A stretch of 64,000 nt of DNA, taken from Alphaproteobacteria bacterium. GTDB taxonomy: Bacteria; Pseudomonadota; Alphaproteobacteria; Sphingomonadales; Sphingomonadaceae. Below the pieces are notes generated by a model. It was given only the letters and a program-made list of their open reading frames with translations. It had not been told where the DNA came from and did not search any database. A program made the translations under genes and the position numbers. The DNA lies in assembly GCA_046566485.1 (NCBI GenBank), contig JBKHWO010000045.1, positions 3,664 through 67,663 of the forward strand. The letters run 5' to 3'. Numbering within the stretch: position 1 is the stretch's first letter; each line of letters begins with the position of its first letter. Positions 2,664-61,904 of this stretch are shown here, piece by piece.

Positions 2664-4171
2664 TGAACGATAATACCCCCGTCATCATCGGCGTTGGCCA
2701 GTATTCCGAACGAGTGGGCGAACCCGGCTATGCCGAGATGAGCCACATGGACCTGGGCGGCGCGGCGCTGAAGGCGGCCTTTGCCGACGCCCAGGCGGCG
2801 CAGGACCTGGGCCCGGCGCTGGATACTCTGGCTGCGATCCGCCAGTTCGAGATTTCGGCGACGCGTTATTCCGCGCCGTTCGGCCACGCCAACAACACCC
2901 CGCGCGCCATTGCCAGCCGCGCCGGCGCCAATCCGGCCCGCGCGATCCTGGAAGTGGTCGGCGGGCAGGGGCCGCAGCGGCTGGTCGGCGAACTCGCCGC
3001 AGAGATTGCCGCGGGCCGCTCCAAGATGGCCGCCGTGGTTGGCTCCGAAGCGATTTCGACCATGCGCGCGCTGCTAAGCCGGGGTGAAAAACGCGACTGG
3101 TCGGAAGAGCACGCGGGCAGCCTGGAAGATCGCGGGCCGGGCTATGACGGCGTGGTCGATCGCACCTCGATCAAGCACGGGGTCGGTGCGCCAATTGCCG
3201 GCTATGCCCTGGCCGAGAACGTGCGGCGCGAGCGGCTGGGCCTGTCGCTCGACGCTTACCGGCTGGAGATCGGCAAGCTGTTTGCGCCTTTCACCCAGGT
3301 CGCCGCCGCCAACCCGCACAGCGCCGCGCCGACCGCGCGCAGTGCTGAGGAACTGGCCACCCTGACCGAGCGCAACCGCCTGGTCGCCGAACCCTATGGA
3401 CGGCTGGTCGTGGCCCGCGATCAGGTCAACCAGGGCGGGGCAATTGTCATCGCCAGCGTTAGCGAAGCGCGCCGTCTGGGCGTTCCGGAAAGCCGCTGGG
3501 TGCACATCCACGGCGTTGCCGACTGCGCCGAGCCGTCGATGCTCAGCCGCGGCAGTCTGGAGAAGAGTCCGGCGGCGGTTGCAGCAATCTCAACCGCACT
3601 TGAGGTTTCCGGAAAAGACTGGGAAAACCTAGGCGCGATCGATCTTTACTCGTGCTTTGCAATCCCGGTTTTCAACCTGCTCGACGCCTTCGGGCTCGAC
3701 CGCGACGACCCGCGTGGCTGGACTCTGACCGGGGGCTTGCCGTTCTTTGGCGGGGCCGGAAACAACTATTCCGCGCACGGAATCGCCGAGGCGGTGCAGC
3801 GCTGCCGCGCCGCTCCCGGCAGCTATGCGCTGGTCGGCGCCAACGGCGGGATCATGAGCAAATATGCCGCCGGGGTCTATTCGACCGAGGCTGCCGACTG
3901 GAGCGAAAGCCGCTGGCACAGCCTCGACAAGATCAAGCCGGAGTTCGAGGTCCTTGACCGCCATGAAGGCGAAGCCGTGGCCGAGAGCTTTACGATCCAG
4001 CCGGGCAAGGATGGCGAGACTGCGACCCTCGTCGCGCGGGTGGGCCATGCCCGGGTGCTGGCCAACAGCAATGATCCGGCGATCTGTGCCGAGCTGCGCG
4101 GCGGCAAGGTCCATGGGCGCCGGGTCGAGATCGAACCGGGCGAGGGCGAGGTTAACCGGTTCCGCTTCTAA
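2660..4171 (+). CDS. thiolase-like acetyl-CoA acetyltransferase family protein
   Basis: PVIIGVGQ start, DLYSCF, LTLTGGLPFFGGAGNNY, ANGG motifs; overlaps the SDR stop. Confidence 0.82.
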   Translation: MMNDNTPVIIGVGQYSERVGEPGYAEMSHMDLGGAALKAAFADAQAAQDLGPALDTLAAIRQFEISATRYSAPFGHANNTPRAIASRAGANPARAILEVVGGQGPQRLVGELAAEIAAGRSKMAAVVGSEAISTMRALLSRGEKRDWSEEHAGSLEDRGPGYDGVVDRTSIKHGVGAPIAGYALAENVRRERLGLSLDAYRLEIGKLFAPFTQVAAANPHSAAPTARSAEELATLTERNRLVAEPYGRLVVARDQVNQGGAIVIASVSEARRLGVPESRWVHIHGVADCAEPSMLSRGSLEKSPAAVAAISTALEVSGKDWENLGAIDLYSCFAIPVFNLLDAFGLDRDDPRGWTLTGGLPFFGGAGNNYSAHGIAEAVQRCRAAPGSYALVGANGGIMSKYAAGVYSTEAADWSESRWHSLDKIKPEFEVLDRHEGEAVAESFTIQPGKDGETATLVARVGHARVLANSNDPAICAELRGGKVHGRRVEIEPGEGEVNRFRF

Positions 4172-4173
4172 AC

Positions 4174-4259
4174 CGTCACCCCGGACTTGATCCGGGGTCC
4201 AGACTTCTCCGGCGCCCTTGTGTAAGGCGGACCGCGCCCCGGCCTTTGTAGGGGTGACA
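4174..4259. repeat. CGTC-tagged REP-like doublet (degenerate)
   Basis: CGTCACCCCGGACTTGATCCGGGGTCC ... CCCCGGCCTTTGTAGGGGTGAC; ends GTCACCCC/GGGGTGAC are complementary. Confidence 0.7.
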
Positions 4260-4413: not shown

Positions 4414-6450
4414 CTACGTCCCCACCAGCGCGGTCAGCGTGTCCACGGTCAGTACCTGCGGCAATTGCCGGGGCGCGCCGCCGCCTGCCGGGTACCACAG
4501 GTAAAGCGGCACGCCTGCCGCGCCTTGCGCGGTGAGGTAGCGGGTGATCGCCGGGTCGCGCCGGGTCCAGTCGCCGCGCAGCACGACCACGCCCGCCTGC
4601 TTGAAGGCGGCGGCCGTTTCCGCGCGTTCGATCGCAGCATCTTCGTTGACCTTGCAGGTCAGGCACCAGTCGGCCGTCATATAGACGAACACCGGCTTGC
4701 CGCTCGCCCGGGCCGTGGTCAGCGCTTGCTCGCTGAATGGCGTGCTGGGCAGGATGGAACTGGTCTCGGCCGCGCCTTCACGGACCATGCCGGGGAGACC
4801 CGCCGCACCGAACAGCAGGACCGCGCCCAGCATCGCCCACCACCGCCCACCGGCAGCCCGGCCGTGATGCTGGCGGCGGCCGAGCAGGACCAGTAGCGCG
4901 ATGACGATCAGGGCGAGCAGTCCGGCGGAAAGAGCAAAACCTCCCCCGGCGAGGCGGCTCGCCAGCCACAGCAGGGCCAGTGCGGTCAGCCCCATCGGCA
5001 CGGCCATGGCCTTGCGGAACCACACCATCCACGCGCCCGGACGCGGCAGCATGGCGCGCAGGCGCGGGACATAGGCGATGGCCAGGAACGGCAGGGCGAG
5101 GCCCAGGCCCAACATGGCGAACAGCGCCAGTGCTTCGGGCACCGGCAGCAGCAAGGCTGCGCCCATCGCGGCGGCCATGAACGGTCCGGTACAGGGCGTG
5201 GCGGCAAAGGCGGCGAGCAGCCCGGTGGCAAAAGCGCCTTGCGGCGATCCGGCACTGGCAAAGCCGGGCACGGCGAATTCGAACAGTCCAAGCAGGTTCG
5301 CAGTAATCGCCACCGCGAGCAGCAGGAGGCCGACAACGACCAGCGGCTCCTGCAACTGGAACGCCCAGCCAACTTCCTGCCCTGCGGCGCGCAAGGCCAG
5401 CAGCAGGACGCCCAGCGCCAGGCAGGCGAGAACGACACCGGCGGTATAGGCCAGCCCTTCGGCCCGGGCATGGCGCTCGCTTTCGCCGGCGCGGGCCAGG
5501 CTCAGCGCTTTCAGCGAAAGGATCGGGAAGACGCAAGGCATGACGTTGAGCAGCAGGCCCCCGGCGAGTGCCGAGAGCAGCAGCACCCACAGCGCGGGGG
5601 TTGCCGCGCTACCAGTGGACAGCGGGGTTCCGCCTGCGGCCACGGCGCCGCGCTCTGCCTCCAGCGTCACGCCGTTGCCCGCCGCGTCAAAGCGCAGCAC
5701 AGCGCTCAGCCGCTGCGGGTCCAGCGGCTCGAACTTGGCACGCGGCAGTTCGACCACCAGCTTGTCGCCGTCACGGAAAAAGGCCTGCGGGGCGGCGTAG
5801 TCGACCACGCGGTGCTTGCCCAGAAACAGGTGCGGGCGCTCCAGCGCAACGGCGGCGGGCAGCGGGATCGCGATCCGCACCTTGCCGCCTTCGATGGCAA
5901 AAGTCGCCTTGGCACCCAGCGGAGCGGGCAGGGCGGCGCGCCATTGGTCAAAGCGGGGGTCAGGAGCGCCCGCCGTGCCAACCGTGACTTCGGCGGAAAG
6001 ATCAGCCTGTTCGGGCACGCAGACCTGATCGGTGCAGGCCAGCCAGTCGAGCCGGACGCGGACCGGCAGGCGCGTTCCGGGCGCGGCATTGGCTGGCAAG
6101 GCCAAGGTGGTCAGAACGGCATATTCATGTTCGTAGACATGGTTCATCAGGCCGCCGACGATCAGCGTTGCCGGAACCGGATAGGCCAGGTCTCCAGCCT
6201 TTGCTCCGGCGGGCAGGGTCCAGTTGGGGGAAAGCCCCAGTCCCGCATCGCCGGGATTGGACCAATAGCCGTGCCAGCCTTTGTCGGGCGTCATCACGAA
6301 GGCCAGTTGAACCGTCCCGCCCGGTGCGGCGGGCCCTTCGACCACCAGCGCGGCCTTGATATGGGTCGGCGCGGCCAGGGCCGGAGCAGCCAGCAAAAGC
6401 GCGCAAAGCTGCAACAGCAGTGTAACAAGGCGGCGGTAGCTGCGGGCCAC
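4414..6450 (-). CDS. dsbD: DsbD-family thiol:disulfide interchange protein (N-terminal DsbC-like domain, TM domain, thioredoxin domain)
   Basis: WHGYWSNPGDAG, LNVMPCVFPIL, ATPCTGPF, TADWCLTCKVN motifs. Confidence 0.88.
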   Translation of the reverse strand: MARSYRRLVTLLLQLCALLLAAPALAAPTHIKAALVVEGPAAPGGTVQLAFVMTPDKGWHGYWSNPGDAGLGLSPNWTLPAGAKAGDLAYPVPATLIVGGLMNHVYEHEYAVLTTLALPANAAPGTRLPVRVRLDWLACTDQVCVPEQADLSAEVTVGTAGAPDPRFDQWRAALPAPLGAKATFAIEGGKVRIAIPLPAAVALERPHLFLGKHRVVDYAAPQAFFRDGDKLVVELPRAKFEPLDPQRLSAVLRFDAAGNGVTLEAERGAVAAGGTPLSTGSAATPALWVLLLSALAGGLLLNVMPCVFPILSLKALSLARAGESERHARAEGLAYTAGVVLACLALGVLLLALRAAGQEVGWAFQLQEPLVVVGLLLLAVAITANLLGLFEFAVPGFASAGSPQGAFATGLLAAFAATPCTGPFMAAAMGAALLLPVPEALALFAMLGLGLALPFLAIAYVPRLRAMLPRPGAWMVWFRKAMAVPMGLTALALLWLASRLAGGGFALSAGLLALIVIALLVLLGRRQHHGRAAGGRWWAMLGAVLLFGAAGLPGMVREGAAETSSILPSTPFSEQALTTARASGKPVFVYMTADWCLTCKVNEDAAIERAETAAAFKQAGVVVLRGDWTRRDPAITRYLTAQGAAGVPLYLWYPAGGGAPRQLPQVLTVDTLTALVGT

Positions 6451-6545: not shown

Positions 6546-8237
6546 ATGCGCCGCATCGTTGCCCCTCTTGCCGTTTCGCTTGCTCTTGCCCTGGCCGCTG
6601 GCGCTCCCGCCGCAGCCGAACCCGCGCAGAACCCGGCGCAGCCTGCGGCGGAAGTACCTGCTGCCGCCCCGGCCAATCCGCCGCGCCTGATCGTTGCGGT
6701 TTCGATCGACCAGTTCAGCGCCGATACCTTCGCCAAGTTCCGCCAGCACTACAGCGGCGGTTTCCTGCGTCTGACAAATGGCGTGGTATTCCCCTCGGGC
6801 TATCAGTCGCACGCCGCGACCGAAACTTGCCCCGGCCATTCGACCCTGCTGACCGGGGTTCATCCGGCGCGCAACGGGATCATCGCCAATTCCTGGTTCG
6901 AACCCGATGGCCCGCGCGGCACGACCTCGATCTATTGCGCCGAAGATGCGACCGACCCGGCCAGCTCAGCGCGCAATCCGGTTGTCTCGGCCCGCAATCT
7001 CAAGGTGCCGACGCTGGGTGAGATGATGAAAAACGTCAACGCCGCGACCCGCAACGTCGCGGTTTCGGCCAAGGACCGCGCCGTGATGATGATGGGCGGG
7101 CACAAGATCGACGCCGCCTGGTGGTGGAAGGGCGGGTCCTTCGTCAGTTTCAAGGATCGCGCGGCTACTCCCGCCGTCCAGGCCGTCAACACCAAGGCTG
7201 CGGCGACGATCAAGGCCGGGGCCAAGGCCCTGCCGATCCCGGTCTGGTGCCAGTCGTCCGACTATGCTGTCCCGGTTGGCAAGACCACGCTGGGCACCGG
7301 CCGGTTCGCGCTGGAAGCGGGCAAGGAAAACCAATTCCGCGTCTCGCCGCGGATGGATGCCGCCACGGTCGATCTGGCCATCGGCCTGGCCGAGGAAATG
7401 AAGCTGGGCAAGGGTCCGGCGACCGACCTGCTCTCGGTCTCGCTGTCCGCGACCGACTATGTCGGCCATGCCACCGGGGTTTCGGGATCGGAAATGTGCA
7501 TCCTGCAGAACCAGCTCGATCAGGATCTGGGCCGGCTGTTCAAGTACCTCGACGGCAAGGGGATCGATTACCTGGTCGTGCTGACTGCTGACCACGGCGG
7601 GCTCGACATGCCCGAGCGGATGGACCAGCAGGCCTATCCCAAGGCGCAGCGCGTCAACGTGGCACTGACCCCGGACAACCTGTCCAAGACCGTCGCGGCG
7701 AAGACCGGCATTGCGGTCGACGGACCGCTGGTCTTCGGCGATGCGCCGATGGGCGACCTCTATGTCAGCCGCAAGCTTGACGCGGCGCAGCGCGCCAAGG
7801 TGATCGCCGCGCTGGTCGAAACGCTGAAGGCCAGCCCGCAGGTCGCCGATGCCTTCACCGGCGAGGACCTGGCTGCCGTGCCGGTGCCCAGCGGCGATCC
7901 GCAGGACTGGACGCTGAAGCAGCGCGCCCGCGCTTCGTACCAGGCGGGTCGTTCGGGCGACGTGGTGCTGATCCTGGGGCGGACCGTGACTCCGATCCCC
8001 GAGCCGATGCCCGGTGCCTATGTCGCCACCCACGGCAGCGCGTTCGACTATGACCGCCGCGTGCCGATCCTGTTCTGGCGCAAGGGCCTGCGCTCGTTCG
8101 AGCAGCCGCAGCCGGTCGAGACGGTCGATATCGCGCCGACCCTGGCGGCGGTGCTGGGCATGAAGGTGCCGGACGGAACCTTCGACGGCCGCTGCCTCGA
8201 TCTTGATGGCGGGGCGGGGGACACCTGCGCCAAGTAG
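6546..8237 (+). CDS. secreted alkaline phosphatase-superfamily enzyme (PhoK/PafA-like, Thr nucleophile)
   Basis: Signal peptide; SIDQF, TETCPGHSTLLTG, DYVGH, TADHG, THGS motifs. Confidence 0.88.
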   Translation: MRRIVAPLAVSLALALAAGAPAAAEPAQNPAQPAAEVPAAAPANPPRLIVAVSIDQFSADTFAKFRQHYSGGFLRLTNGVVFPSGYQSHAATETCPGHSTLLTGVHPARNGIIANSWFEPDGPRGTTSIYCAEDATDPASSARNPVVSARNLKVPTLGEMMKNVNAATRNVAVSAKDRAVMMMGGHKIDAAWWWKGGSFVSFKDRAATPAVQAVNTKAAATIKAGAKALPIPVWCQSSDYAVPVGKTTLGTGRFALEAGKENQFRVSPRMDAATVDLAIGLAEEMKLGKGPATDLLSVSLSATDYVGHATGVSGSEMCILQNQLDQDLGRLFKYLDGKGIDYLVVLTADHGGLDMPERMDQQAYPKAQRVNVALTPDNLSKTVAAKTGIAVDGPLVFGDAPMGDLYVSRKLDAAQRAKVIAALVETLKASPQVADAFTGEDLAAVPVPSGDPQDWTLKQRARASYQAGRSGDVVLILGRTVTPIPEPMPGAYVATHGSAFDYDRRVPILFWRKGLRSFEQPQPVETVDIAPTLAAVLGMKVPDGTFDGRCLDLDGGAGDTCAK

Positions 8238-26084: not shown

Positions 26085-26762
26085 CTATCTGCAGAACGCG
26101 CTGCTGCTGAGTTCCAGATGGAGATGGTCGGAATGTGCCGCGTTGTAGGCCGGCCCCAGAACCGTGCCAAACCGCTTGCAGGCGCTGGCCTGGATCGTGG
26201 CAAAGAACTTCCGCACCTTGGGTGACGGGTCGTGCCAGTTGCCTGAAACGGTGATGCGGCGGCCGTCCGCCAGGACAAAACCGGACACGTCGATCGCCTG
26301 GGCCACGGCATGGGCGCTGCGACGTTCGGACCCGGCGACGTTGCGGCAGCTGTAGCTGCCCATCGTCTCGATCCGGACGATCGGGCTGCCGAGGATCTGC
26401 TGCGCGGCGCGGTCGGCACCAAAGCGCGCCCAGGCCGCAAAGGTTTCGGCAAGCGGGCAGGTCACCGGGCCAAGGTTGCTGAGCGCCAGCCGCGCATCGT
26501 CGCTTTTCAGCGCGGAAAGCTGGACCGTGCCGAGCGTTGAACAGCCCGCGCCGTAATACTTGTCGGGCAGGGGCGAGAATGCCGCCTGGCGTGCTCCGAG
26601 GTCCGCCAGGCAGGCCCGGATGTCCGGGCGCGGGGTCAGGATACTGGTCGATTGGCGGACCTTGGCGCGCTGGGGCGCATCGGGCGGCACGGCGCTACAC
26701 CCGCCCAGGATCAGGGCCAGAGACGCTGCGAACAGGGCAATGCGCATGTCCATCGATTCCAT
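26085..26762 (-). CDS. extensin-like family lipoprotein
   Basis: LGGC lipobox, MGSYSCR, SAHA.A.AIDVSGF, GPAYNAAH.DHLH. Confidence 0.85.
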   Translation of the reverse strand: MESMDMRIALFAASLALILGGCSAVPPDAPQRAKVRQSTSILTPRPDIRACLADLGARQAAFSPLPDKYYGAGCSTLGTVQLSALKSDDARLALSNLGPVTCPLAETFAAWARFGADRAAQQILGSPIVRIETMGSYSCRNVAGSERRSAHAVAQAIDVSGFVLADGRRITVSGNWHDPSPKVRKFFATIQASACKRFGTVLGPAYNAAHSDHLHLELSSSAFCR

Positions 26763-26859
26763 GTACCTGTGCGGCGACCAGCGAGCCACCGCCCGAACAT
26801 CTAGCATAAATTCGTATCCGGAACACCGGATTTGCTTGACTCGCGGCGGGCCATCCCAC

Positions 26860-26900
26860 AGGGCGGCGGCGGGCCACGCGGTCCCAACGCCGCGCGTGCT
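26860..26900 (+). ncRNA. possible serC leader hairpin
   Basis: CACGCGG-TCCCAACG-CCGCGCGTG hairpin just ahead of the serC RBS. A serC leader RNA family is known in alphaproteobacteria, but the match is unverified. Confidence 0.3.
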
Positions 26901-26919
26901 CTCTGTGAGGAGAGTCTAC

Positions 26920-28050
26920 ATGACTGATACTGTGAAGCCTGCGGCCAAGCCCGCACGCCCGTTCTTTTCTTCCGGTCCCTGCGCCAAGCCGCCGGGCTAT
27001 TCCCCCGAAAAACTCGCCACCGAATCGTTGGGCCGTTCGCACCGCGCCAAGATCGGCAAGACGCGTCTGCAGTACTGCATCGACCTGATGCGCGAAGTGC
27101 TGGGCCTGCCGGATACGCATCGCATCGGCATCGTCCCCGGTTCGGATACCGGCGCGTTCGAAATGGCCATGTGGACCATGCTGGGCGCCCGCCCGGTTAC
27201 CACGCTGGCCTGGGAATCGTTCGGCGAAGGCTGGGTCACGGACGCGGCCAAGCAGCTCAAGCTCGATCCCACCGTGCTGCGCGCGGATTACGGCCAGCTG
27301 CCGGATCTGTCGCAGATTGACTGGTCGAACGACGTGCTCTTCACCTGGAACGGCACCACCTCTGGCGTGCGCGTGCCCAATGCCGATTTCATCCCCGAGA
27401 CTCGCGAAGGCCTGTCCTTCGCTGACGCCACCTCGGCTGTCTTTGCTTACGACATCGACTGGGCGAAGATCGACGTCGCTACCTTCTCCTGGCAGAAGGT
27501 GCTGGGCGGCGAGGGCGGTCACGGTGTCCTGATCCTTGGACCGCGGGCTGTCGAACGGCTCGAAACCTATACCCCGGCCTGGCCGCTGCCCAAGGTGTTC
27601 CGCCTGGTTTCCAAGGGCAAGCTGGCCGAAGGCGTGTTCAAGGGGGAAACGATCAACACCCCGTCGATGCTGGCCGTCGAAGATGCCATCTTTGCGCTCG
27701 AATGGGCCAAGGGTCTGGGCGGGCTGAACGGCCTGCAGGCGCGCTCCAATGCCAATGCTGCGGCGCTGAACAAGATCGTTGCGGAACGCGCGTGGCTGTC
27801 GCACCTCTGCGCAGACGAAGCCACCCGCTCGAAGACTTCGGTCTGCCTTTCGGTCGAAGGGGCTGATGAAGCCTTTATCAAGGCCATGGCCGGCTTGCTG
27901 GAAAAGGAAGGCGCGGCTTACGATATCGCCGGTTACCGCGATGCCCCTCCGGGTCTGCGGATCTGGTGCGGCGCGACCGTCAATGCCGAAGACATTGAAG
28001 CGCTCGGCCCGTGGCTCGACTGGGCCTACGCCAGCACCAAGGCTGCCTGA
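26920..28050 (+). CDS. serC: phosphoserine aminotransferase
   Basis: FSSGPCAK, GRSHR, WNGTTSGV, FSWQKVLGGEG (PLP Lys), INTPS; upstream of serA. Confidence 0.95.
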   Translation: MTDTVKPAAKPARPFFSSGPCAKPPGYSPEKLATESLGRSHRAKIGKTRLQYCIDLMREVLGLPDTHRIGIVPGSDTGAFEMAMWTMLGARPVTTLAWESFGEGWVTDAAKQLKLDPTVLRADYGQLPDLSQIDWSNDVLFTWNGTTSGVRVPNADFIPETREGLSFADATSAVFAYDIDWAKIDVATFSWQKVLGGEGGHGVLILGPRAVERLETYTPAWPLPKVFRLVSKGKLAEGVFKGETINTPSMLAVEDAIFALEWAKGLGGLNGLQARSNANAAALNKIVAERAWLSHLCADEATRSKTSVCLSVEGADEAFIKAMAGLLEKEGAAYDIAGYRDAPPGLRIWCGATVNAEDIEALGPWLDWAYASTKAA

Positions 28051-28065
28051 CTTAAGCACGAAGTC

Positions 28066-28156
28066 CGTCACCCTGAACTTGTTTCAGGGTCCATTTCTCC
28101 GTCCAAACCATCGCTTTTGATTGCGCGATGGATGCTGAAACAAGTTCAGCATGACG
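28066..28156. repeat. CGTC-tagged REP-like doublet (AT-rich variant)
   Basis: CGTCACCCTGAACTTGTTTCAGGGTCCAT ... ATGGATGCTGAAACAAGTTCAGCATGACG inverted pair. Confidence 0.8.
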
Positions 28157-28177
28157 ATGTTGTGATTGGATGATTTT

Positions 28178-29761
28178 ATGACCAAGCCCCGCGTACTCAT
28201 TTCCGACAAGATGGACCCCAACGCCGCCCGCATTTTTGAAGAACGCGGCTGCGATGTGGATGTCATCACCGGCGAAACCCCCGAACAATTGATCGCCCGC
28301 ATCGGCGACTATGATGGCCTGGCCATCCGTTCCTCGACCAAGGTGACCAAGGAAGTGCTCGCCGCCGCCACCAACCTCAAGGTTGTTGGCCGCGCCGGGA
28401 TCGGGGTCGACAACGTCGATATTCCGGCTGCCTCGGCCCAGGGCGTGGTGGTGATGAACACCCCGTTCGGCAACTCGATCACCACGGCGGAACACGCCAT
28501 CGCCCTGATGTTCGCTCTGGCCCGCCAGATTCCGGAAGCCAATGCCCAGACCCAGGCCGGCAAGTGGCCCAAGAACGACTTCATGGGCGTTGAAGTGACC
28601 GGCAAGACCCTGGGCCTGATCGGCGCGGGCAACATCGGCTCGATCGTCGCCAGCCGCGCGCTGGGCCTGAAGATGAAGGTCGTGGCGTTCGACCCGTTCC
28701 TGACCCCGGAACGCGCGGTGGAAATGGGCGTCGAAAAGGCCGATCTCGACACGCTGCTGGCCAAGGCGGATTTCATCACGCTGCACACCCCGCTGACCGA
28801 CCAGACCCGCAACATCCTGTCGAAGGAAAACCTGGCCAAGACCAAGAAGGGCGTGCGGATCATCAACTGCGCCCGCGGCGGCCTGATCGACGAAGCGGCG
28901 CTGAAGGAAGCGATGGATTCCGGCCATGTCGCCGGGGCCGCGCTCGACGTGTTCCAGACCGAACCGGCCAAGGAATCGCCGCTGTTCGGCACGCCCAACT
29001 TCATCTGTACCCCGCACCTGGGCGCTTCGACCAACGAAGCCCAGGTCAACGTGGCGCTGCAGGTGGCCGAGCAGATGGCCGACTATCTGGTCAACGGCGG
29101 CGTCACCAATGCGCTCAACGTGCCCAGCCTCTCGGCTGAAGAAGCCCCGAAGCTCAAGCCCTACATGGCGCTTGCCGAACAGCTTGGTTCGATGGTCGGC
29201 CAGCTGACCACCGGCGCGATCCCGCGCATCTCGATCCATGCCGAAGGCGCAGCGGCCGAACTCAACATCAAGCCGATCGTCGCTGCCGTTCTGGCCGGGT
29301 TCCTGCGCGTCCAGTCGGACACGGTGAACATGGTCAACGCGCCGTTCCTGGCTAAGGAACGCGGCATGGAAGTGCGCGAGGTCAAGACCGAGAAGGCCGG
29401 TGACTACCACACCCTGATCCGCGTTTCGGTGAAGACCGATGCGGGTGAGCGGTCGGTCGCCGGAACCCTGTTCTCGAACAGCGAACCGCGCCTGGTCGAA
29501 CTGTTCGGCATCAAGGTCGAAGCCGAACTCGCCGGCCACATGATGTACATCGTGAACGAAGACGCACCGGGCTTCATCGGCCGCGTCGGCACCCTGCTGG
29601 GCGAAAATTCGATCAACATCGGCACTTTCAACCTGGGCCGCCGCGAGGCGGGCGGGGAAGCCGTGCTGCTGCTGAGCGTCGACAGCCCGGTCAATGCCGG
29701 CCTGATCGAACAGGTCCGCAAGCTGCCGGGCGTCAAGCGCGCGATGGCTCTGGCGTTCTGA
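28178..29761 (+). CDS. serA: D-3-phosphoglycerate dehydrogenase
   Basis: GRAGIGVDN, NTPFGN, GAGNIG, CARGG, PHLGAST, C-terminal ACT domain. Confidence 0.97.
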   Translation: MTKPRVLISDKMDPNAARIFEERGCDVDVITGETPEQLIARIGDYDGLAIRSSTKVTKEVLAAATNLKVVGRAGIGVDNVDIPAASAQGVVVMNTPFGNSITTAEHAIALMFALARQIPEANAQTQAGKWPKNDFMGVEVTGKTLGLIGAGNIGSIVASRALGLKMKVVAFDPFLTPERAVEMGVEKADLDTLLAKADFITLHTPLTDQTRNILSKENLAKTKKGVRIINCARGGLIDEAALKEAMDSGHVAGAALDVFQTEPAKESPLFGTPNFICTPHLGASTNEAQVNVALQVAEQMADYLVNGGVTNALNVPSLSAEEAPKLKPYMALAEQLGSMVGQLTTGAIPRISIHAEGAAAELNIKPIVAAVLAGFLRVQSDTVNMVNAPFLAKERGMEVREVKTEKAGDYHTLIRVSVKTDAGERSVAGTLFSNSEPRLVELFGIKVEAELAGHMMYIVNEDAPGFIGRVGTLLGENSINIGTFNLGRREAGGEAVLLLSVDSPVNAGLIEQVRKLPGVKRAMALAF

Positions 29762-29766
29762 TTTGG

Positions 29767-29850
29767 CGTCGTCCCGGGCTTGACCCGGGACCGCTTGCCG
29801 CTAGGCACGAAGCCCGACGGCCAGCGATCCCGGCTTTCGCCGGGATGACG
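29767..29850 (-). repeat. 84-bp CGTC REP doublet
   Basis: Reverse complement reads CGTCATCCCGGCGAAAGCCGGGATC...GGTCCCGGGTCAAGCCCGGGACGACG. Confidence 0.85.
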
Positions 29851-56409: not shown

Positions 56410-57810
56410 ATGGACTATATCTCGACCCGTGGCAGCGCTCCGGCGCTCGATTTCGAAGGCGCGACGCTGGCAGGACTCGCCAGCGACGGCGGGCTCTATG
56501 TGCCGCGCGAATGGCCGCGTTTCACTGCGGATGAGATCGCGGCCATGGCGGGCCTGCCTTATGCCGAGCTGGCCGCGCGGGTCATGCACCCCTTCGTCGG
56601 CTCATCGCTGACCTATGAGCGGCTGCTGGAGCTGACCACCCAGGCCTATGGCCGGTTCGCGCACAAGGCGGTGACTCCGCTCAAGCAGCTTGACGAGCAG
56701 CAGTGGCTGCTTGAACTGTTCCACGGCCCGACCTTGGCGTTCAAGGACGTCGCGCTGCAACTGCTGGGCCTGCTGTTCGAGGAATTTCTGGGCCGGGGCG
56801 GCGATCCGCTGACCATCGTCGGGGCTACCTCGGGCGATACCGGATCGGCAGCGATCGATGCGGTTGCGGGGCGGTCGCGCGTCGACATCTTCATGCTTCA
56901 CCCCCACGGTCGGGTCAGCGACGTGCAGCGCCGCCAGATGACCACGGTGCTGGCCCCCAACGTCCACAACATCGCGATCGAAGGGACCTTTGACGATGCC
57001 CAGGCGATGGTGAAGCGGATGTTCAACGACAGCGCGATGACCTCGCGCTTCAGCATCGGCGCGGTCAATTCGATCAACTGGGCGCGGCTGATGGCGCAGG
57101 TGGTCTATTACTTCGCCGCCGCCCTGCAATTGGGCGCGCCGCAGCGCGCTGTTGCCTTCTCGGTGCCGACCGGCAATTTCGGCGACGTCTTTGCCGGCTA
57201 TGTCGCGGCGCAGATGGGCCTGCCGGTGGCGCGGCTGATCGTGGCGACCAACGTCAACGACATTCTCCACCGTGCGCTGTCGAGCGGGGACTATTCCGCC
57301 GGAACCGTTACCCCCACCGCGGCGCCGTCGATGGACATCCAGGTCTCATCGAATTTCGAGCGTCTGCTGTTCGATCTTGGCGGTCGCGATGGTCAGGCCA
57401 TGGCCGCGCAGATGGCCGGGTTTGAAAGCACGAAGGCGATGCAGCTGACCAACGCCCAGCGTGAAGGCGCGGCAAAGCTGTTCACTTCGGCGCGCGCCGA
57501 TGCCGACCAGATGGCCGAGGCGATTCGCTGGGCCCATGACAATTGCGGCGAATTGCTTGATCCGCATACCGCGATCGGGCTGCACGCGGCGCGCGTGTCT
57601 GGTCTTTCGCGCGAAGTGCCGGTGGTGACGCTGGCCACGGCGCATCCTGCCAAGTTCCGCGATGCGGTCGAACGCGCCACTGGTCAGCGGCCCGAGCTGC
57701 CCGCTCGGATCGGCGACCTGTTCGAGCGCGAAGAGCGCATGGTCGAGCTGCCGGGCGATTACGACACCATTGCCGATTACGTCGCCGGCCACGCGGTCGC
57801 GCGGGGGTAG
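56410..57810 (+). CDS. thrC: threonine synthase
   Basis: YISTRG, GLASDGGLYVP, FHGPTLAFKD, ATSGDTG, NSINWAR, VPTGNFG, TAHPAKF. Confidence 0.97.
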   Translation: MDYISTRGSAPALDFEGATLAGLASDGGLYVPREWPRFTADEIAAMAGLPYAELAARVMHPFVGSSLTYERLLELTTQAYGRFAHKAVTPLKQLDEQQWLLELFHGPTLAFKDVALQLLGLLFEEFLGRGGDPLTIVGATSGDTGSAAIDAVAGRSRVDIFMLHPHGRVSDVQRRQMTTVLAPNVHNIAIEGTFDDAQAMVKRMFNDSAMTSRFSIGAVNSINWARLMAQVVYYFAAALQLGAPQRAVAFSVPTGNFGDVFAGYVAAQMGLPVARLIVATNVNDILHRALSSGDYSAGTVTPTAAPSMDIQVSSNFERLLFDLGGRDGQAMAAQMAGFESTKAMQLTNAQREGAAKLFTSARADADQMAEAIRWAHDNCGELLDPHTAIGLHAARVSGLSREVPVVTLATAHPAKFRDAVERATGQRPELPARIGDLFEREERMVELPGDYDTIADYVAGHAVARG

Positions 57811-58788
57811 ATGGCACAGCTCCAGACCCAGCCACTCGTCCTCGCCGGGACCGGCTGGGACGACTACGGGCTTCTCGATTCCGGCCACGGACGCAAGCTG
57901 GAGCGGTATGGCGATTATCGCTTTGTCCGGCCCGAGCCGCAGGCGATGTGGACGCCGCGGCTGGCGGACTGGGACGCGCATGGTGAATTTGTCCCCGGTT
58001 CGGACGAGGACGGCGGTGGGCGCTGGCAGTATAACGGTCCAGTCCCGCGTGACGGCTGGCCGCTGGCGCGCGGCGATGTCCGCTTTACTGCACAGTGCAC
58101 GCCGTTCCGCCATCTCGGCTTCTTCCCCGACATGGCCCCGGTGTGGGACTGGATGGGCGAGCAATACCGTCGGGATCCGGGCCAGAGCCATTCCGTCATC
58201 CCCGCGAAAGCGGGGACCGCGGGCGGTTCGGCGGATAGGGTAGCGGTCCCCGGTCAAGCCGGGGACGACGGATTTAGCAGCCTGAACCTGTTCGGCTATA
58301 CCGGGGTCGGCACCCTGGCCCTGTCGCAATACGGCCCGGTCACGCACGTGGATGCCAGCAAGAAGTCGGTTGCCCAGGCCCGCGCCAATGCGGCGCTTTC
58401 CGGCATGGACCAGCGCCCGGTGCGCTGGATCATCGACGATGCAGCCAAGTTCACCGCGCGCGAAGTGCGGCGCGGACGGCGCTATGACGGGATCATCCTC
58501 GATCCGCCCAAGTTCGGCCGCGGGCCTGAAGGCGAAGTATGGCGGCTGGAGGAACATCTGCCCGGCCTGGTCGCCGATTGCCGCCAGTTGCTCGATCCGG
58601 AAAGCCGTTTCCTGTTCCTGACGGTCTATGCCGTGCGGATGAGTTCGCTGGCGCTGGCCGGTCTGCTGGATGAGGTTTTTTCGGGCCTCCCTGGCCGGAT
58701 CGAGCATGGCGACTTGGCCGTGCGCGAGGAAGGCGAGGGTGGACGCCTGCTCCCCACCGCGATCTTCGCGCGCTGGACCAACGACTGA
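57811..58788 (+). CDS. class I SAM-dependent methyltransferase (RlmI/RlmK-like) carrying an in-frame REP insertion
   Basis: KLERYG, FRHLGFFP, LNLFGYTG, DGIILDPPKFGRG; extra SVIPAKAG...VPGQAGDD segment. Confidence 0.88.
   Translation: MAQLQTQPLVLAGTGWDDYGLLDSGHGRKLERYGDYRFVRPEPQAMWTPRLADWDAHGEFVPGSDEDGGGRWQYNGPVPRDGWPLARGDVRFTAQCTPFRHLGFFPDMAPVWDWMGEQYRRDPGQSHSVIPAKAGTAGGSADRVAVPGQAGDDGFSSLNLFGYTGVGTLALSQYGPVTHVDASKKSVAQARANAALSGMDQRPVRWIIDDAAKFTAREVRRGRRYDGIILDPPKFGRGPEGEVWRLEEHLPGLVADCRQLLDPESRFLFLTVYAVRMSSLALAGLLDEVFSGLPGRIEHGDLAVREEGEGGRLLPTAIFARWTND
58194..58270 (+). repeat. 77-bp CGTC REP doublet inside a coding sequence
   Basis: CGTCATCCCCGCGAAAGCGGGGACC...GGTCCCCGGTCAAGCCGGGGACGACG, the same family as 29767, 59536 and 61821. 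Confidence 0.88.
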
Positions 58789-58808
58789 ATTTGAAGAAGG
58801 GCACTGCG

Positions 58809-59180
58809 ATGGCCGAGAGCCTGATCCTTGAGGTTGGCAATTTTGAGCACGATGTCCTGACCGGCATCTATTCGGAAGAGACCGGCCGTCCGCAGCCGCT
58901 GCGCTTTACCATCACTGCGCGGCTCAAGCCCGCGCCGCGCTATCAGCCGGACACCCCGCTGGAGGCGAGCAAGAACTACATGGACCTCAAGTTCGCAGCC
59001 TCCGAGGCGCTGCCGCAAGGGGTGCATTTCAAGCTGATCGAGGCCGTGGCCGATCACATCTGCGACACTCTGTTCGTCCAGGACGAGCGCGTGCTGGAAG
59101 TGACGGTCAAGATCGCCAAGCTGGCGATCAGCGAGAACGGCGAGGAAATCGGCATTACCCTGACGCGGGAACGGCGCTGA
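58809..59180 (+). CDS. folB: dihydroneopterin aldolase
   Basis: GIYSEE...QPL, NYMD, LIEAVA, V.VKI.K pattern. Confidence 0.8.
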   Translation: MAESLILEVGNFEHDVLTGIYSEETGRPQPLRFTITARLKPAPRYQPDTPLEASKNYMDLKFAASEALPQGVHFKLIEAVADHICDTLFVQDERVLEVTVKIAKLAISENGEEIGITLTRERR

Positions 59181-59497
59181 TGCAGCGGCTCGACGTGTCC
59201 GGCCTGCCCGGCGTGCCGAGCGCGGCAGCGGCGGTGTTTTATGGCGAATGGCTGGGCCGCGCCCAGGCACTGCTGAGCGGCGGTTCCCTGGTGCTGGTCT
59301 TTCCCCCTGCCGGACATGAACATGCCGGGTGGCGGCTCAGTGCAGTGCAGACCCTGGCGCGCGAGAATGCCCCAGCTCGCATCAATGCGATTGCCAGCGA
59401 TGACGAAGCGGCCATTGCGGCTGCTCTGGCCTATCTCGCGGCGGCCGACGGCGTGACCGGGCAATATCTGCCGCTGGACAGCGTTGGGGCGGGTTGA
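59180..59497 (+). CDS. small protein resembling the C-terminal half of an SDR (Rossmann-fold fragment)
   Basis: LARENAPARINAIA and VTGQYLPLD motifs; coupled to folB. Confidence 0.65.
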   Translation: MQRLDVSGLPGVPSAAAAVFYGEWLGRAQALLSGGSLVLVFPPAGHEHAGWRLSAVQTLARENAPARINAIASDDEAAIAAALAYLAAADGVTGQYLPLDSVGAG

Positions 59498-59535
59498 CGA
59501 TTGGGGGGCTAAGGCTCTTCACCAGGACCATTATG

Positions 59536-59619
59536 CGTCATCCCCGTGTAGGCGGGGATCGCTGGCCGTTGGTCTGTAGCTAGTCAGGCCAACGGTCCCC
59601 GGTCAGGCCGGGGACGACG
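59536..59619 (+). repeat. 84-bp CGTC REP doublet
   Basis: CGTCATCCCCGTGTAGGCGGGGATC...GGTCCCCGGTCAGGCCGGGGACGACG. Confidence 0.85.
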
Positions 59620-59654
59620 CAGGTTTTCACCAGGTGGAAGCACCAGCCAGGAGC

Positions 59655-60176
59655 CTACCGCTCCAGCAAACCCTTCAGCGAATCGAGCACGCCGTCCTGC
59701 GCGGCGATGATGCCCAGGGCCTTTTGCCGGGTCACTTCGATCTGGCCCACATCGCGGCCTTCGGTGCGGGCATCGGCATAGATCGAATCGAGCTGCGCCA
59801 TGGCGACCATGGCCTCGGCCCGGGCGGATTCGAGTTCCGCGATAGCGATGGAAGCAACCGACCAGGCTTCGCTGCCCATCGCTGCCTTGCGCGCGGCGCT
59901 GGCCAGCGAACGGGCACGGGCTGTTTTTGCGGCGAAACGGCCGTCCGCTGCCGAAACTTGCGCCAGAAGTCCGTCCAGACGGTTCGCGGTCGCGGGATCG
60001 AGCGGGGGCGGGGCCGGGGGCGGCGGTGGCGGGGCGGGCGGCCAGGTCGCGGTGATCCGCTCGGCCGGACGCTTGGCCAACGAAGGGTAGGCTCCTTCTG
60101 GCGAAGTGCAGCCGCCAAGGGCCAGAGTTGCCGAAGCAAGCAAGAGCGGGGTAATGCGGCGAACCATAGTCTGCAT
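59655..60176 (-). CDS. hypothetical lipoprotein
   Basis: LGGC lipobox, YPSLAKRPAER, Pro-rich linker, helical C-terminus. Confidence 0.72.
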   Translation of the reverse strand: MQTMVRRITPLLLASATLALGGCTSPEGAYPSLAKRPAERITATWPPAPPPPPPAPPPLDPATANRLDGLLAQVSAADGRFAAKTARARSLASAARKAAMGSEAWSVASIAIAELESARAEAMVAMAQLDSIYADARTEGRDVGQIEVTRQKALGIIAAQDGVLDSLKGLLER

Positions 60177-61820: not shown

Positions 61821-61904
61821 CGTCATCCCCGCGCAGGCGGGGATCGCGGGCGGTTCAGGTCGGGCCTAGCCGGCGAGCGGTCCCCGCTCGAGCCGGGGAC
61901 GACG
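61821..61904 (+). repeat. 84-bp CGTC REP doublet
   Basis: CGTCATCCCCGCGCAGGCGGGGATC...GGTCCCCGCTCGAGCCGGGGACGACG. Confidence 0.85.

What the first reader, a model, noticed from the sequence alone, without database searches (positions are those of the whole stretch)
58194..58270. REP element inserted in-frame in a methyltransferase, creating a new peptide loop
Seen: the same CGTC doublet found intergenically three times lies inside the ORF 57811-58788 without breaking the frame. It encodes VIPAKAGTAGGSADRVAVPGQAGDD between FPDMAPVWDWM and the SAM-binding motif LNLFGYTG. This copy is 7 bp shorter than the 84-bp intergenic copies. Known: Rickettsia palindromic elements insert into coding genes in a similar way. 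Inference: de novo protein sequence from selfish DNA in a surface loop next to the SAM site, possibly also an mRNA structure that pauses translation.
Basis: partly seen in the sequence, partly recalled or inferred. Interest (0 to 1): 0.7.

Follow-up and report, generated by a model that had tools for sequence, protein, structure and literature searches.

The report
REP repeat inside a methyltransferase linker
A 77-base selfish palindromic repeat (a CGTC-type REP doublet) sits in frame in the linker between the two domains of a conserved RNA-methyltransferase-like gene. It adds a floppy loop of about 30 residues to a gene that still looks functional; this kind of event is already documented, but here the same linker has been colonised by several different repeat families in related bacteria.

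Summary
Window 58194-58270 is a 77-nt head-to-head doublet of CGTC-tagged REP hairpins, and three 84-85-nt intergenic copies lie in the same window. It is in frame inside ORF 57811-58788, a 325-aa homolog of PDB 2igt (RlmI-like class I SAM methyltransferase).

Orthologs across Sphingomonadales have a conserved 12-residue linker here (132 of 160 sampled loci). The window has 42 residues, so the insert is derived.

The gene stays under strong purifying selection (dN/dS 0.06-0.09). The allele occurs in at least 20 metagenome runs, and an RNA-seq contig reads through the insert. AlphaFold gives pLDDT below 50 for residues 123-153. The site is the inter-domain linker just before strand beta-1 and motif I.

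This kind is already described. Di Nocera et al. 2013 define CGTC-1 REPs (equated with Rickettsia RPE-6) and list VIPAKAGI-type intragenic inserts, including dimers in Erythrobacter RNA-modification genes.

New here:
- At least three unrelated palindromic repeat families occupy this one linker in different Novosphingobium lineages.
- Decayed in-frame remnants exist.
- Filled and empty alleles occur in strains only 1-2% apart.
- The hairpin arms evolve far more slowly than synonymous sites.

A function for the peptide or the RNA hairpin is untested. The best reading is a tolerated passenger.

The parts
57811..58788 (+). Host gene: a 325-aa two-domain class I SAM-dependent methyltransferase of the 2igt / RlmI-like family. 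Its ATG directly follows the thrC stop codon.
   Evidence: PDB 2igt matches at E 7.9e-76 in two blocks flanking the insert. Foldseek's top hit is 2igt, TM 0.78-0.81. PF10672 scores 26 bits, just under its cut-off of 27. The thrC-MTase-folB gene order is conserved.
58159..58284 (+). Expanded inter-domain linker: 42 codons (EQYRRDPGQSHS-VIPAKAGTAGGSADRVAVPGQAGDD-GFSSL) in place of the ancestral 12 codons (xQLxGxxDAxTL/M).
   Evidence: pLDDT is below 50 for residues 123-153, with helix 104-120 before and strand 157-160 after.
58165..58193 (+). A 29-nt segment (TACCGTCGGGATCCGGGCCAGAGCCATTC) between the old linker start and the REP. It may be a decayed arm of an earlier CGTC element (compare CGTCGTCCCGGACTTGATCCGGGACC in L088); this is an inference.
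   Evidence: It is the same length in L084 but 12 of 29 nt differ, about the neutral level.
58194..58217 (+). REP hairpin 1, CGTC-1 type: CGTC tag, 8-bp stem ATCCCCGC/GCGGGGAc, loop GAAA. It encodes VIPAKAG.
   Evidence: The family definition is in PMC3733652.
58218..58245 (+). Central spacer of the doublet, 7-8 nt shorter than in the intergenic copies. It has no stop codon in the reading frame used.
   Evidence: The alignment gap is and the stop counts per frame. Seven of 28 nt differ from L084.
58246..58270 (-). REP hairpin 2, in inverted orientation, so the doublet is head-to-head: CGTC tag, stem GTCCCCGG/CCGGGGAC, 5-nt loop. It encodes (A)VPGQAGDD on the + strand.
   Evidence: It is identical in L084.
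59536..59620 (+). Intergenic copy of the same doublet (85 nt), between convergent genes.
   Evidence: An orthologous copy is present in L081 and L084.
61821..61904 (+). Intergenic copy of the same doublet (84 nt), downstream of an acetyltransferase gene.
29766..29850 (-). Intergenic copy of the same doublet (85 nt), with compensatory stem changes.

Best explanation
**What it is.** A mobile or copy-prone palindromic repeat lies in frame in the linker that joins the N-terminal domain to the Rossmann (SAM-binding) domain of a 2igt/RlmI-like methyltransferase in a Novosphingobium-type bacterium. The repeat is a head-to-head doublet of CGTC-tagged REP hairpins, and the full unit is about 85 nt.

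**Shown.**
- The ancestral 12-residue linker was replaced by a 42-residue one. The REP supplies 25-26 codons, and a spacer version shorter than in the intergenic copies is open in the frame used.
- The added peptide is predicted to be a disordered excursion at the domain boundary.
- The enzyme stays under strong purifying selection and is transcribed through the repeat.

**Inferred.**
- The insert is a tolerated passenger with little or no function as a peptide.
- The linker behaves like a small intergenic region inside a gene. It accepts palindromic repeats of several families, loses them again by in-frame deletions between repeat arms, and differs between closely related strains. That difference most likely arises from short-patch homologous recombination anchored in the invariant flanks (PVWDWMG and NLFGYTGVG).
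- The hairpin arms themselves are held constant at the nucleotide level, by whatever keeps the REP family uniform: selection on DNA or RNA structure or recognition, or conversion between copies.
For: **Repeat identity and copy number:**

**CGTC-1 features and the catalogued VIPAKAGI peptide:** PMC3733652.

**The insert is derived.**
- The 12-aa linker is present in 75/80 and 57/80 loci across Sphingomonadales.
- PDB 2igt has only about 5 residues where the query has 35.

**The gene is intact and under constraint.**
- omega is 0.079 at dS 0.51 for window vs L084; both carry the insert.
- The allele is present in at least 20 metagenome runs, and one DNA contig covers 57400-59050 with no differences.
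- An RNA-seq contig covers 58168-58370 with no differences.
- No terminator-like site was found.

**Predicted disorder:** pLDDT is 27-41 over residues 123-153, between helix 104-120 and strand 157-160.

**Decay products.**
- In L081 the doublet is collapsed to CGTCAATCCCGACG (63 nt lost).
- In L083 there is a single chimeric hairpin (48 nt lost between TCCCCG direct repeats). Both are in frame.

**Other repeat families at the same site.**
- A CCTCCCCGG-ACGGGGAGG family, read in two frames.
- A CCCCTCCCCTTCAGGGGAGGGG family.
- CGTC doublets in another frame and in another arm combination.
- Each family also has intergenic copies in other loci.

**Filled/empty pairs in near-identical backgrounds:** L084/L085, L087/L089, L090/L091. 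The intergenic REP sites of L084/L085 are equally non-homologous.

**Arm conservation (window vs L084).**
- 1 of 49 arm nucleotides differs, against 48 of 158 four-fold sites (P = 4e-7).
- 0 of 16 third codon positions in the arms differ (P = 0.003).
Against: - No protein-level evidence (proteomics) that the 42-residue linker is made, and no enzyme assay.
- The RNA evidence is an assembled contig from a metatranscriptome library, which could contain DNA.
- The insertion mechanism is unknown. No target-site duplication is visible, and 15-22 nt of the old linker are missing in every filled allele. A simple cut-and-paste insertion does not explain that.
- The recombination explanation for filled/empty pairs rests on three pairs of metagenome contigs.
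- The slow evolution of the hairpin arms could mean the hairpins do something in this mRNA or DNA, so 'pure passenger' may be too strong.
Confidence: 0.85

Rival explanations
1. The repeat has been co-opted. As an RNA hairpin (about -50 kcal/mol) placed exactly at the domain boundary, it slows ribosomes or shapes mRNA decay. That would help the two domains fold in turn, or would tune the amount of enzyme.
For: - Strong, non-random fold: z = -4.0, and none of 200 shuffles fold as well.
- The arms are conserved far below the synonymous rate inside a coding region.
- The position is exactly between the two domains.
- Palindromic repeats of different families recur at the same place.
Against: - Most orthologs (132 of 160 sampled loci) do without any insert.
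- Close relatives carry collapsed remnants without hairpins while the gene stays intact.
- Arm conservation is also seen in intergenic copies and is a general property of the family.
- No expression or pausing data exist.
Confidence: 0.1
2. The added peptide has gained a function of its own, for example a flexible tether that changes substrate reach or a new interaction surface.
For: - In the loop, dN/dS is 0.44, below 1.
- A hydrophobic residue (F or L) follows nearly every kind of insert.
Against: - Unrelated peptides from different repeat families and reading frames occupy the site.
- The loop is predicted to be disordered.
- The apparent constraint is explained by nucleotide-level conservation of the arms, since even third positions are frozen.
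Confidence: 0.03
3. Artefact or pseudogene: the repeat was mis-assembled into the gene, or the gene is dead and the open frame is a coincidence.
For: REPs are a known source of assembly joins. Contigs from other loci do end inside the repeat (loose ends).
Against: - The same allele is found in at least 20 independent runs.
- Single contigs cross the repeat with no differences in both DNA and RNA libraries.
- Eight further protein clusters at 90-99% identity keep the 325-aa frame.
- omega is about 0.07.
Confidence: 0.02

Closest known systems
CGTC-tagged REPs, family CGTC-1 (Di Nocera, De Gregorio & Rocco 2013, BMC Genomics 14:522, PMC3733652)
   Same: - Terminal CGTC tag.
- 8-bp G+C-rich stem starting with A-T, and a 4-nt loop (hairpin 1).
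- Head-to-head dimers.
- Alphaproteobacterial host.
- Mostly downstream of genes or between convergent genes.
- Intragenic dimers that encode 20-30 residues. VIPAKAGI is listed for R. conorii and S. wittichii, and VVPAKAGT...IPASAGMT for E. litoralis glycyl-tRNA synthetase. RsmE and TruB are also hit.
   Different: - This host gene and genus are not in their tables.
- Hairpin 2 has a 5-nt loop and G-T instead of A-T at the base of the stem, which is closer to their CGTC-2 description.
- In that paper, only recB of two Xanthomonas species has REPs at about the same site. Here many lineages and several repeat families share one linker.
Rickettsia palindromic elements (RPE; Ogata et al. 2000, cited in PMC3733652)
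   Same: Palindromic repeats inserted in frame in conserved, apparently functional genes, where they add a surface peptide. Di Nocera et al. equate RPE-6 with CGTC-1.
   Different: - The host is a free-living, high-G+C sphingomonad rather than a reduced intracellular genome.
- The element is a doublet of two short REPs, not the 100-150-nt RPE-1 type.
- I did not align the element with RPE-6 DNA.
REPINs (REP doublets forming hairpins, mobilised by RAYT transposases)
   Same: Two inverted REPs with a short spacer that can fold into one long hairpin. The doublet is dispersed as a unit with a conserved spacer.
   Different: - REPINs as described carry GTAG-type heads and pair with a RAYT gene.
- This element has CGTC heads, for which the 2013 survey found no dedicated transposase.
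- No transposase was looked for here.
PDB 2igt (Agrobacterium tumefaciens SAM-dependent methyltransferase) and RlmI/RlmO/RlmK 23S rRNA methyltransferases
   Same: Host protein fold and motifs: an N-terminal beta-rich domain plus a Rossmann domain, with NLFGYTG (motif I) and DPPKF.
   Different: - 2igt has a linker of about 5 residues where the window protein has 35.
- The substrate of this subfamily is unknown.
- Scores against the RlmI-type equivalog models are far below their cut-offs.

Membership tests
CGTC-tagged REP, CGTC-1 (PMC3733652) | Unpaired CGTC tetranucleotide at one end of a short stem-loop | tested here: met
   CGTC precedes both hairpins, read on their own strands, in all four copies.
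CGTC-tagged REP, CGTC-1 (PMC3733652) | 8-bp stem with complementary A-T residues in the first and second positions, and a 4-nt loop | tested here: met
   Hairpin 1 is AT-CCCCGC GAAA GCGGGG-Ac, and the intergenic copies end in AT. Hairpin 2 differs (GT start, 5-nt loop) and is nearer to CGTC-2.
CGTC-tagged REP, CGTC-1 (PMC3733652) | Multi-copy and dispersed, predominantly intergenic, organised as head-to-head dimers | tested here: met
   There are four doublets in 64 kb, three of them intergenic. Further copies lie in L081 and L084. The tags face outward, which is the head-to-head arrangement.
CGTC-tagged REP, CGTC-1 (PMC3733652) | Characteristic encoded peptide when intragenic (VIPAKAGI and frame variants) | tested here: met
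   The window encodes VIPAKAGT. The paper's Additional file 3 lists VIPAKAGI and VVPAKAGT.
REPIN / RAYT system | Inverted REP pair able to form one long hairpin | tested here: met
   The minimum-free-energy fold pairs the two ends: -50.1 kcal/mol, z = -4.0.
REPIN / RAYT system | GTAG-type head and an associated RAYT (Y1 transposase) gene in the genome | tested here: not met
   The head is CGTC, not GTAG. No search for a RAYT gene was made, and only 64 kb of the genome is available.
MITE (transposase-mobilised miniature element) | Terminal inverted repeats flanked by a target-site duplication | tested here: not met
   Inverted ends are present. No duplication is seen at any of the four copies or in related loci (the flanks are). 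Instead, 15-22 nt of the target are missing.
Rickettsia palindromic element (RPE-6) | Sequence relationship to RPE-6 and in-frame residence in conserved genes | tested here: inconclusive
   In-frame residence is met. The relationship rests on Di Nocera's equation of CGTC-1 with RPE-6 and on the shared VIPAKAG(I) peptide. No DNA alignment with RPE-6 was made.
Intrinsic terminator | G+C-rich hairpin followed by a T run | tested here: not met
   No terminator-like site lies in 57600-59800. An RNA contig reads through.
Class I SAM methyltransferase, 2igt / RlmI-like (host gene) | Rossmann fold with motif I (xNLFxYTG) and DPPKF, preceded by a beta-rich N-terminal domain | tested here: met
   2igt matches at E 7.9e-76, with both domains aligned. 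Foldseek gives TM 0.78-0.81. The motifs are invariant in 32 orthologs.
RlmI (23S rRNA m5C1962 methyltransferase) equivalog | Score above the NCBIfam equivalog cut-off; PUA domain | tested here: not met
   NF011707 scores 29 bits against a cut-off of 712, and NF053718 scores 40 against 575. The protein is about 100 residues shorter than RlmI, so the JGI name for it is not supported.

The most novel reading that the evidence does not exclude
**Reading.** The linker may be a true landing pad rather than a merely permissive spot. Once a palindromic repeat sits there, further repeats of the same or other families would be drawn to it and replace it (repeat-into-repeat targeting, or break repair templated on repeats). 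The hairpin arms would be kept by selection acting on DNA or RNA even inside a coding region.

**Why it would matter.** That would make this gene a natural reporter for how CGTC-type REPs move. No transposase is known for them.

**Observations that leave this open.**
- Alleles with unrelated repeats share the same flanks: CAATAC on the left and TTT/TTC-xCx-AGC-CTG on the right.
- The old linker core is always missing.
- The arms are frozen: 1 of 49 positions differs, against 30% at four-fold sites.
Probability: 0.2. Interest if true: 0.6.

Novelty: new member of a known kind. Interest (0 to 1): 0.35.

Why it matters
It is a clean, well-controlled natural example of selfish palindromic DNA becoming protein sequence. 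The empty, filled and decayed alleles are all at hand, and a solved structure of a homolog is available.

Three practical points follow:
- Such inserts push domain models below their cut-offs. Nearly all insert-bearing orthologs lack the precomputed PF10672 hit, and the window protein scores 26 bits against a cut-off of 27.
- Inter-domain linkers can behave like intergenic DNA in population comparisons.
- The many alleles of this one linker offer material for working out how CGTC-type REPs, which have no known transposase, are gained and lost.

Tried and rejected
1. **Palindromic target.** The empty site in L085 contains GCTGCGCGGGCGCAGC, so I asked whether the ancestral linker is a conserved hairpin that attracts repeats. 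In 75 empty-site loci, the 36-nt linker folds no better than other 36-nt windows of the same gene (median percentile 0.51; 8% of loci below 0.1). Rejected.

2. **Proteome-wide search for REP-encoded peptides.** A 54-aa query made of two copies of the REP peptide gave only 4 word-sharing candidates, and none scored. This says nothing about how common such inserts are.

3. **Known RNA family or terminator.**
   - Rfam gave only a sub-threshold CRISPR-repeat match, on an intergenic copy.
   - No terminator-like or promoter-like site was found around the gene.

4. **Target-site duplication.** None was seen at any copy.

5. **Counting independent insertions from the protein tree.** Filled alleles sit beside near-identical empty ones, so the tree reflects recombination or turnover, not insertion history. 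I counted families, orientations and frames instead.

6. **Genome-collection scan ranking.** The ranking favoured ungapped matches, so the 75/80 figure shows that the 12-residue linker is ancestral. It does not give the frequency of inserts.

7. **Literature searches for sphingomonad-specific or hot-spot reports.** They found nothing beyond PMC3733652.
Full report
**1. The observation**

Window 58194-58270 reads CGTCATCCCCGCGAAAGCGGGGAC, then a 28-nt spacer, then GTCCCCGGTCAAGCCGGGGACGACG.
- Both halves are short G+C-rich hairpins with a CGTC tag on the outside, so the unit is an inverted, head-to-head doublet.
- Repeat search and alignment find three more copies, at 59536-59620 (+), 61821-61904 (+) and 29766-29850 (-). 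They are 84-85 nt long.
- The 18-nt core has 4 matches in the window against 0.19 expected, and none of 100 shuffles reached 4.
- One copy carries a two-sided stem change (CCCGGCG/CGCCGGG), so pairing is kept.
- The three other copies lie between ORFs, two of them between convergent genes (gene calls in syntenic loci).
- The copy in question is 7-8 nt shorter because of a gap in the spacer.
- It lies in frame in ORF 57811-58788, where it encodes VIPAKAGTAGGSADRVAVPGQAGDD.

Two details need refining. Thirteen further residues (GEQYRRDPGQSHS) separate WDWM from the REP peptide. The total gain over empty orthologs is 30 residues (90 nt), not 77 nt.

**2. The host gene**

- The 325-aa product matches PDB 2igt, the Agrobacterium tumefaciens SAM-dependent methyltransferase, at E 7.9e-76. 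The match is in two blocks, query 7-116 and 151-323, which correspond to 2igt 33-145 and 151-328. About five residues of 2igt therefore stand where the query has 35.
- More distant hits are RlmI (3c0k), TTHA1280, SMU.776 and the C-terminal half of RlmL/K.
- An AlphaFold model (mean pLDDT 73.9) has 2igt as its best structural match, with TM 0.78-0.81.
- In the model, helix 104-120 is followed by residues 123-153 at pLDDT 27-41. Strand 157-160 (LNLF) and the glycine-rich motif I (GYTG) come next.

The insert therefore sits in the linker between the N-terminal beta-rich domain and the Rossmann domain, and it ends four residues before motif I.

The gene follows thrC without a gap and precedes folB. 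That order is kept in all related loci.

The name '23S rRNA (cytosine1962-C5)-methyltransferase' that some sources give to orthologs is not supported. The RlmI equivalog models score 29-40 bits against cut-offs of 575-712.

**3. Is it an insertion?**

- In one genome per species (GTDB collection), 75 of 80 orthologous loci from Novosphingobium, Erythrobacter, Qipengyuania, Porphyrobacter and others have exactly 12 residues between PVWxWMx and NLFGYTG. The pattern is xQLxGxxDAxTL/M.
- In JGI metagenomes the figure is 57 of 80.
- Among the 120 best protein hits, 67 have the 12-residue linker.

The short linker is ancestral and the 42-residue one is derived.

**4. Is the gene alive?**

- Outside the loop, dN/dS is 0.079 between the window and L084. 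Both carry the repeat, and dS is 0.51. All six comparisons give 0.06-0.09.
- Eight other protein clusters at 90-99% identity keep the 325-aa frame.
- The exact allele is found in at least 20 metagenome runs from water, sludge, soil, groundwater and landfill. One DNA contig covers 57400-59050 without a difference.
- In a freshwater RNA-seq library, a 203-nt contig covers 58168-58370 without a difference. It crosses the whole repeat with coding sequence on both sides, at a depth like that of the neighbouring genes. Assembled RNA libraries can contain DNA, so this is supportive but not conclusive.
- The repeat is not followed by a T run, and no terminator-like site is found.

The pseudogene and artefact readings are rejected.

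**5. What the repeat is**

Di Nocera, De Gregorio and Rocco (2013, PMC3733652) sorted REPs into GTAG- and CGTC-tagged super-families.
- CGTC repeats live mainly in Alphaproteobacteria.
- Family CGTC-1 has an 8-bp stem that starts with A-T pairs, and a 4-nt loop.
- The elements are mostly head-to-head dimers.
- No dedicated transposase is known.
- CGTC-1 of Rickettsia conorii equals RPE-6.

Hairpin 1 here (CGTC AT-CCCCGC GAAA GCGGGG-AT/c) fits CGTC-1 exactly. Hairpin 2 (GT start, 5-nt loop) is closer to their CGTC-2.

Their Additional file 3 lists intragenic CGTC-1 peptides:
- VIPAKAGI in six R. conorii genes and in S. wittichii.
- Dimers of 20-30 residues in Erythrobacter litoralis RsmE, TruB, DnaE2, glycyl-tRNA synthetase (VVPAKAGTSLGQSAKTNEIPASAGMT) and isoleucyl-tRNA synthetase.

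The kind of event is therefore already described, in the same bacterial order and in the same class of genes (RNA-modifying and RNA-binding enzymes). This gene and genus are not in their tables. I did not align the DNA myself.

**6. What goes beyond the known picture: one linker, many repeats**

Of the 120 closest orthologs, about 50 have a longer linker, and these fall into several classes.

| Class | Peptide signature | DNA or example locus |
|---|---|---|
| a | VIPAKAG...AVPGQAGDD | The window's doublet |
| b | RHPGxxRD...GPGxxPGRR | The same doublet read in another frame (P0093, P0116, L110) |
| c | RRPGLDPGP...AVPGQAGDD | Doublets with both arms of the hairpin-2 type; L088 is an almost perfect 95-nt palindrome at -85 kcal/mol |
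| d | LPGTGRGT...PPRAGEE, or PPRHGEGD...ATSPSRGG | An unrelated family, CCTCCCCGG-ACGGGGAGGGGGACC...GGTGGAGGGG, read in two frames |
| e | PLPFRGGAGGG...SPHPNPSPEGEG | A third family, CCCCTCCCCTTCAGGGGAGGGG...CCCCACCCCAACCCCTCCCC |

- All are strongly palindromic at the DNA level.
- Families (d) and (e) also occur outside genes in other loci: L011:5-144, L017:1433-1536 and L046:4433-4466. They are therefore genuine dispersed repeats.
- At least three unrelated families have entered this one linker, in several frames and arm combinations.
- Short leftovers, such as EQLGSPSPNAEGLSTL, EQLHRGEGGDASTL and half-elements in L094 and L119, show later loss.

In the window's own lineage there are two decay products.
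- L081 (304 aa) has the doublet collapsed to CGTCAATCCCGACG. Sixty-three nt are lost and both ends are kept.
- L083 (305 aa) has one chimeric hairpin, CGTCATCCCCGGTCAAGCCGGGGACGACG. Forty-eight nt are lost between the TCCCCG direct repeats of the two arms.
- Both deletions are in frame, as expected if only in-frame survivors are seen.

**7. Filled and empty alleles in near-identical strains**

With the loop masked, filled alleles sit next to empty ones on the protein tree. At the DNA level, three pairs differ by 0-2 mismatches per 60 nt over 1.7-2 kb, except in the linker:
- L084/L085 (CGTC doublet vs empty).
- L087/L089 (family d vs empty).
- L090/L091 (family d vs empty).

In every filled allele, 15-22 nt of the old linker core are missing. 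The flanking codons also differ. For example, the serine before TL is TCG in L087 but AGC in its near-identical empty partner L089. This is a replacement of the linker, not a simple interruption.

Over 6 kb, L084 and L085 are 1-2% apart, except at the linker and at two REP-bearing intergenic regions. Those regions are non-homologous between the two strains, and the flanking divergence around one of them is raised for a few hundred bases.

The linker thus behaves like an intergenic REP site. My reading is short-patch homologous recombination between strains, with crossovers in the invariant flanks. This is an inference, and in-place replacement of one repeat by another is not excluded. Alleles with unrelated repeats share the same left flank (CAATAC) and right flank (TTT/TTC-xCx-AGC-CTG), which neither simple model explains well.

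**8. The repeat arms are frozen**

| Segment (window vs L084) | Differences |
|---|---|
| Two hairpins | 1 of 49 nt |
| Spacer | 7 of 28 |
| 29-nt left segment | 12 of 29 |
| Right flank | 4 of 14 |
| Four-fold degenerate sites, rest of the gene | 48 of 158 (30%) |

- At that 30% rate, the chance of at most 1 difference in 49 is 4e-7.
- None of the 16 third codon positions inside the arms differs (P = 0.003).
- The spacer and flanks have diverged at about the neutral rate, and the two alleles share the same shortened spacer. The two copies therefore appear old, and the arms appear to be held constant at the nucleotide level.
- This could come from selection on structure or recognition, or from conversion by other copies. 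The present data cannot tell these apart. Intergenic copies show the same pattern.

**9. Why the in-gene copy is shorter**

The 85-nt copy at 59536 has a stop codon in each of the three forward frames. In the frame used by the gene, two of the three intergenic copies have a stop. The in-gene copies of the window and of L084 are open in that frame, and L084 is open in all three. The 7-8-nt loss and the base changes in the spacer are therefore what make read-through possible and bring the total gain to 90 nt. The order of these events is an inference.

**10. Mechanism and function**

*Shown.* A CGTC-type REP doublet is part of an intact, constrained, transcribed gene. The encoded segment lies at a domain boundary and is predicted to be disordered.

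*Inferred.* It is a tolerated passenger, and the linker is one of the few places in this protein where 20-45 extra residues do no harm. No other region of the alignment has large indels.

*Tested and rejected.* I asked whether the ancestral linker is a hairpin that attracts repeats. It is not: the median percentile among 36-nt windows of the same gene is 0.51.

*Open.* The idea that the RNA hairpin (-50 kcal/mol, z = -4.0) pauses ribosomes between the two domains remains possible. The frozen arms and the recurrent occupation are compatible with it. Against it, most orthologs lack any insert and hairpin-less remnants are tolerated. I give it about 0.1.

**11. Verdict**

It belongs to a kind already catalogued in 2013: intragenic CGTC-1 REP dimers, equated there with Rickettsia RPE-6. 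It is therefore a new member of a known kind.

The additional result may interest people who work on REPs:
- one inter-domain linker colonised by at least three repeat families;
- decay intermediates;
- strain-level presence/absence;
- nucleotide-level freezing of the arms.

CGTC elements have no known mobilising enzyme, so this material could help there. Interest 0.35.

Noticed in passing
window 28066-28156: A different CGTC head-to-head doublet (CGTC ACCCTGAAC TTG TTTCAGGGT ... ATGCTGAAACAAGTTCAGCAT GACG). It lies between ORFs 26560-28050 and 28166-29761. It looks like a second CGTC subfamily in the same genome, with A+T-richer stems.
   Followed up: partly
window 4174-4198: A single CGTC-tagged hairpin (CGTC ACCCCGGAC TTG ATCCGGGGT) that starts 3 nt after the stop codon of ORF 2660-4171. 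This is the typical position just downstream of a gene.
   Followed up: partly
L084:2861-3013 and 5187-5401 vs L085:5599-5734 and 7908-8000: The two strains are 1-2% apart over 6 kb, yet their intergenic regions at these places are completely non-homologous. L084 has CGTC doublets (two in tandem at 5192-5391), while L085 has other palindromic elements. REP-bearing spacers are replaced wholesale between close relatives.
   Followed up: partly
window 59536-59620: This intergenic doublet has TAG stop codons in all three forward frames (spacer GTTGGTCTGTAGCTAGTC plus a loop TAG), so it cannot be read through in that orientation. The other two intergenic copies have stops in only one or two forward frames.
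   Followed up: partly
window 58096-58160 (RNA run X25, record 9): The same RNA-seq library also holds a contig that matches up to 58160 and then continues TCAGCTGGACGGTCGCAGCGACGCGGCG. That is an empty-site allele (QLDGRSDAA) from a co-occurring strain, so both allele types are present in one community.
   Followed up: no
window 57808-57813: The thrC stop codon (TAG, 57808-57810) is directly followed by the methyltransferase ATG (57811). The two genes are likely co-transcribed and perhaps translationally coupled. This junction is kept in the related loci.
   Followed up: no
homolog table (orthologs of ORF 57811-58788): Nearly all orthologs with an insert lack the precomputed Pfam PF10672 hit, while most empty-site orthologs have it. 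The window protein scores 26 bits against a cut-off of 27. Repeat-derived loops can therefore knock proteins out of automatic domain annotation.
   Followed up: partly
window 61825-61848 (-): Hairpin 1 of an intergenic REP copy gives a sub-threshold Rfam match to a CRISPR direct-repeat model (RF01356, 25 bits against a cut-off of 35, E 0.31). It is most likely a chance resemblance between short palindromes.
   Followed up: no
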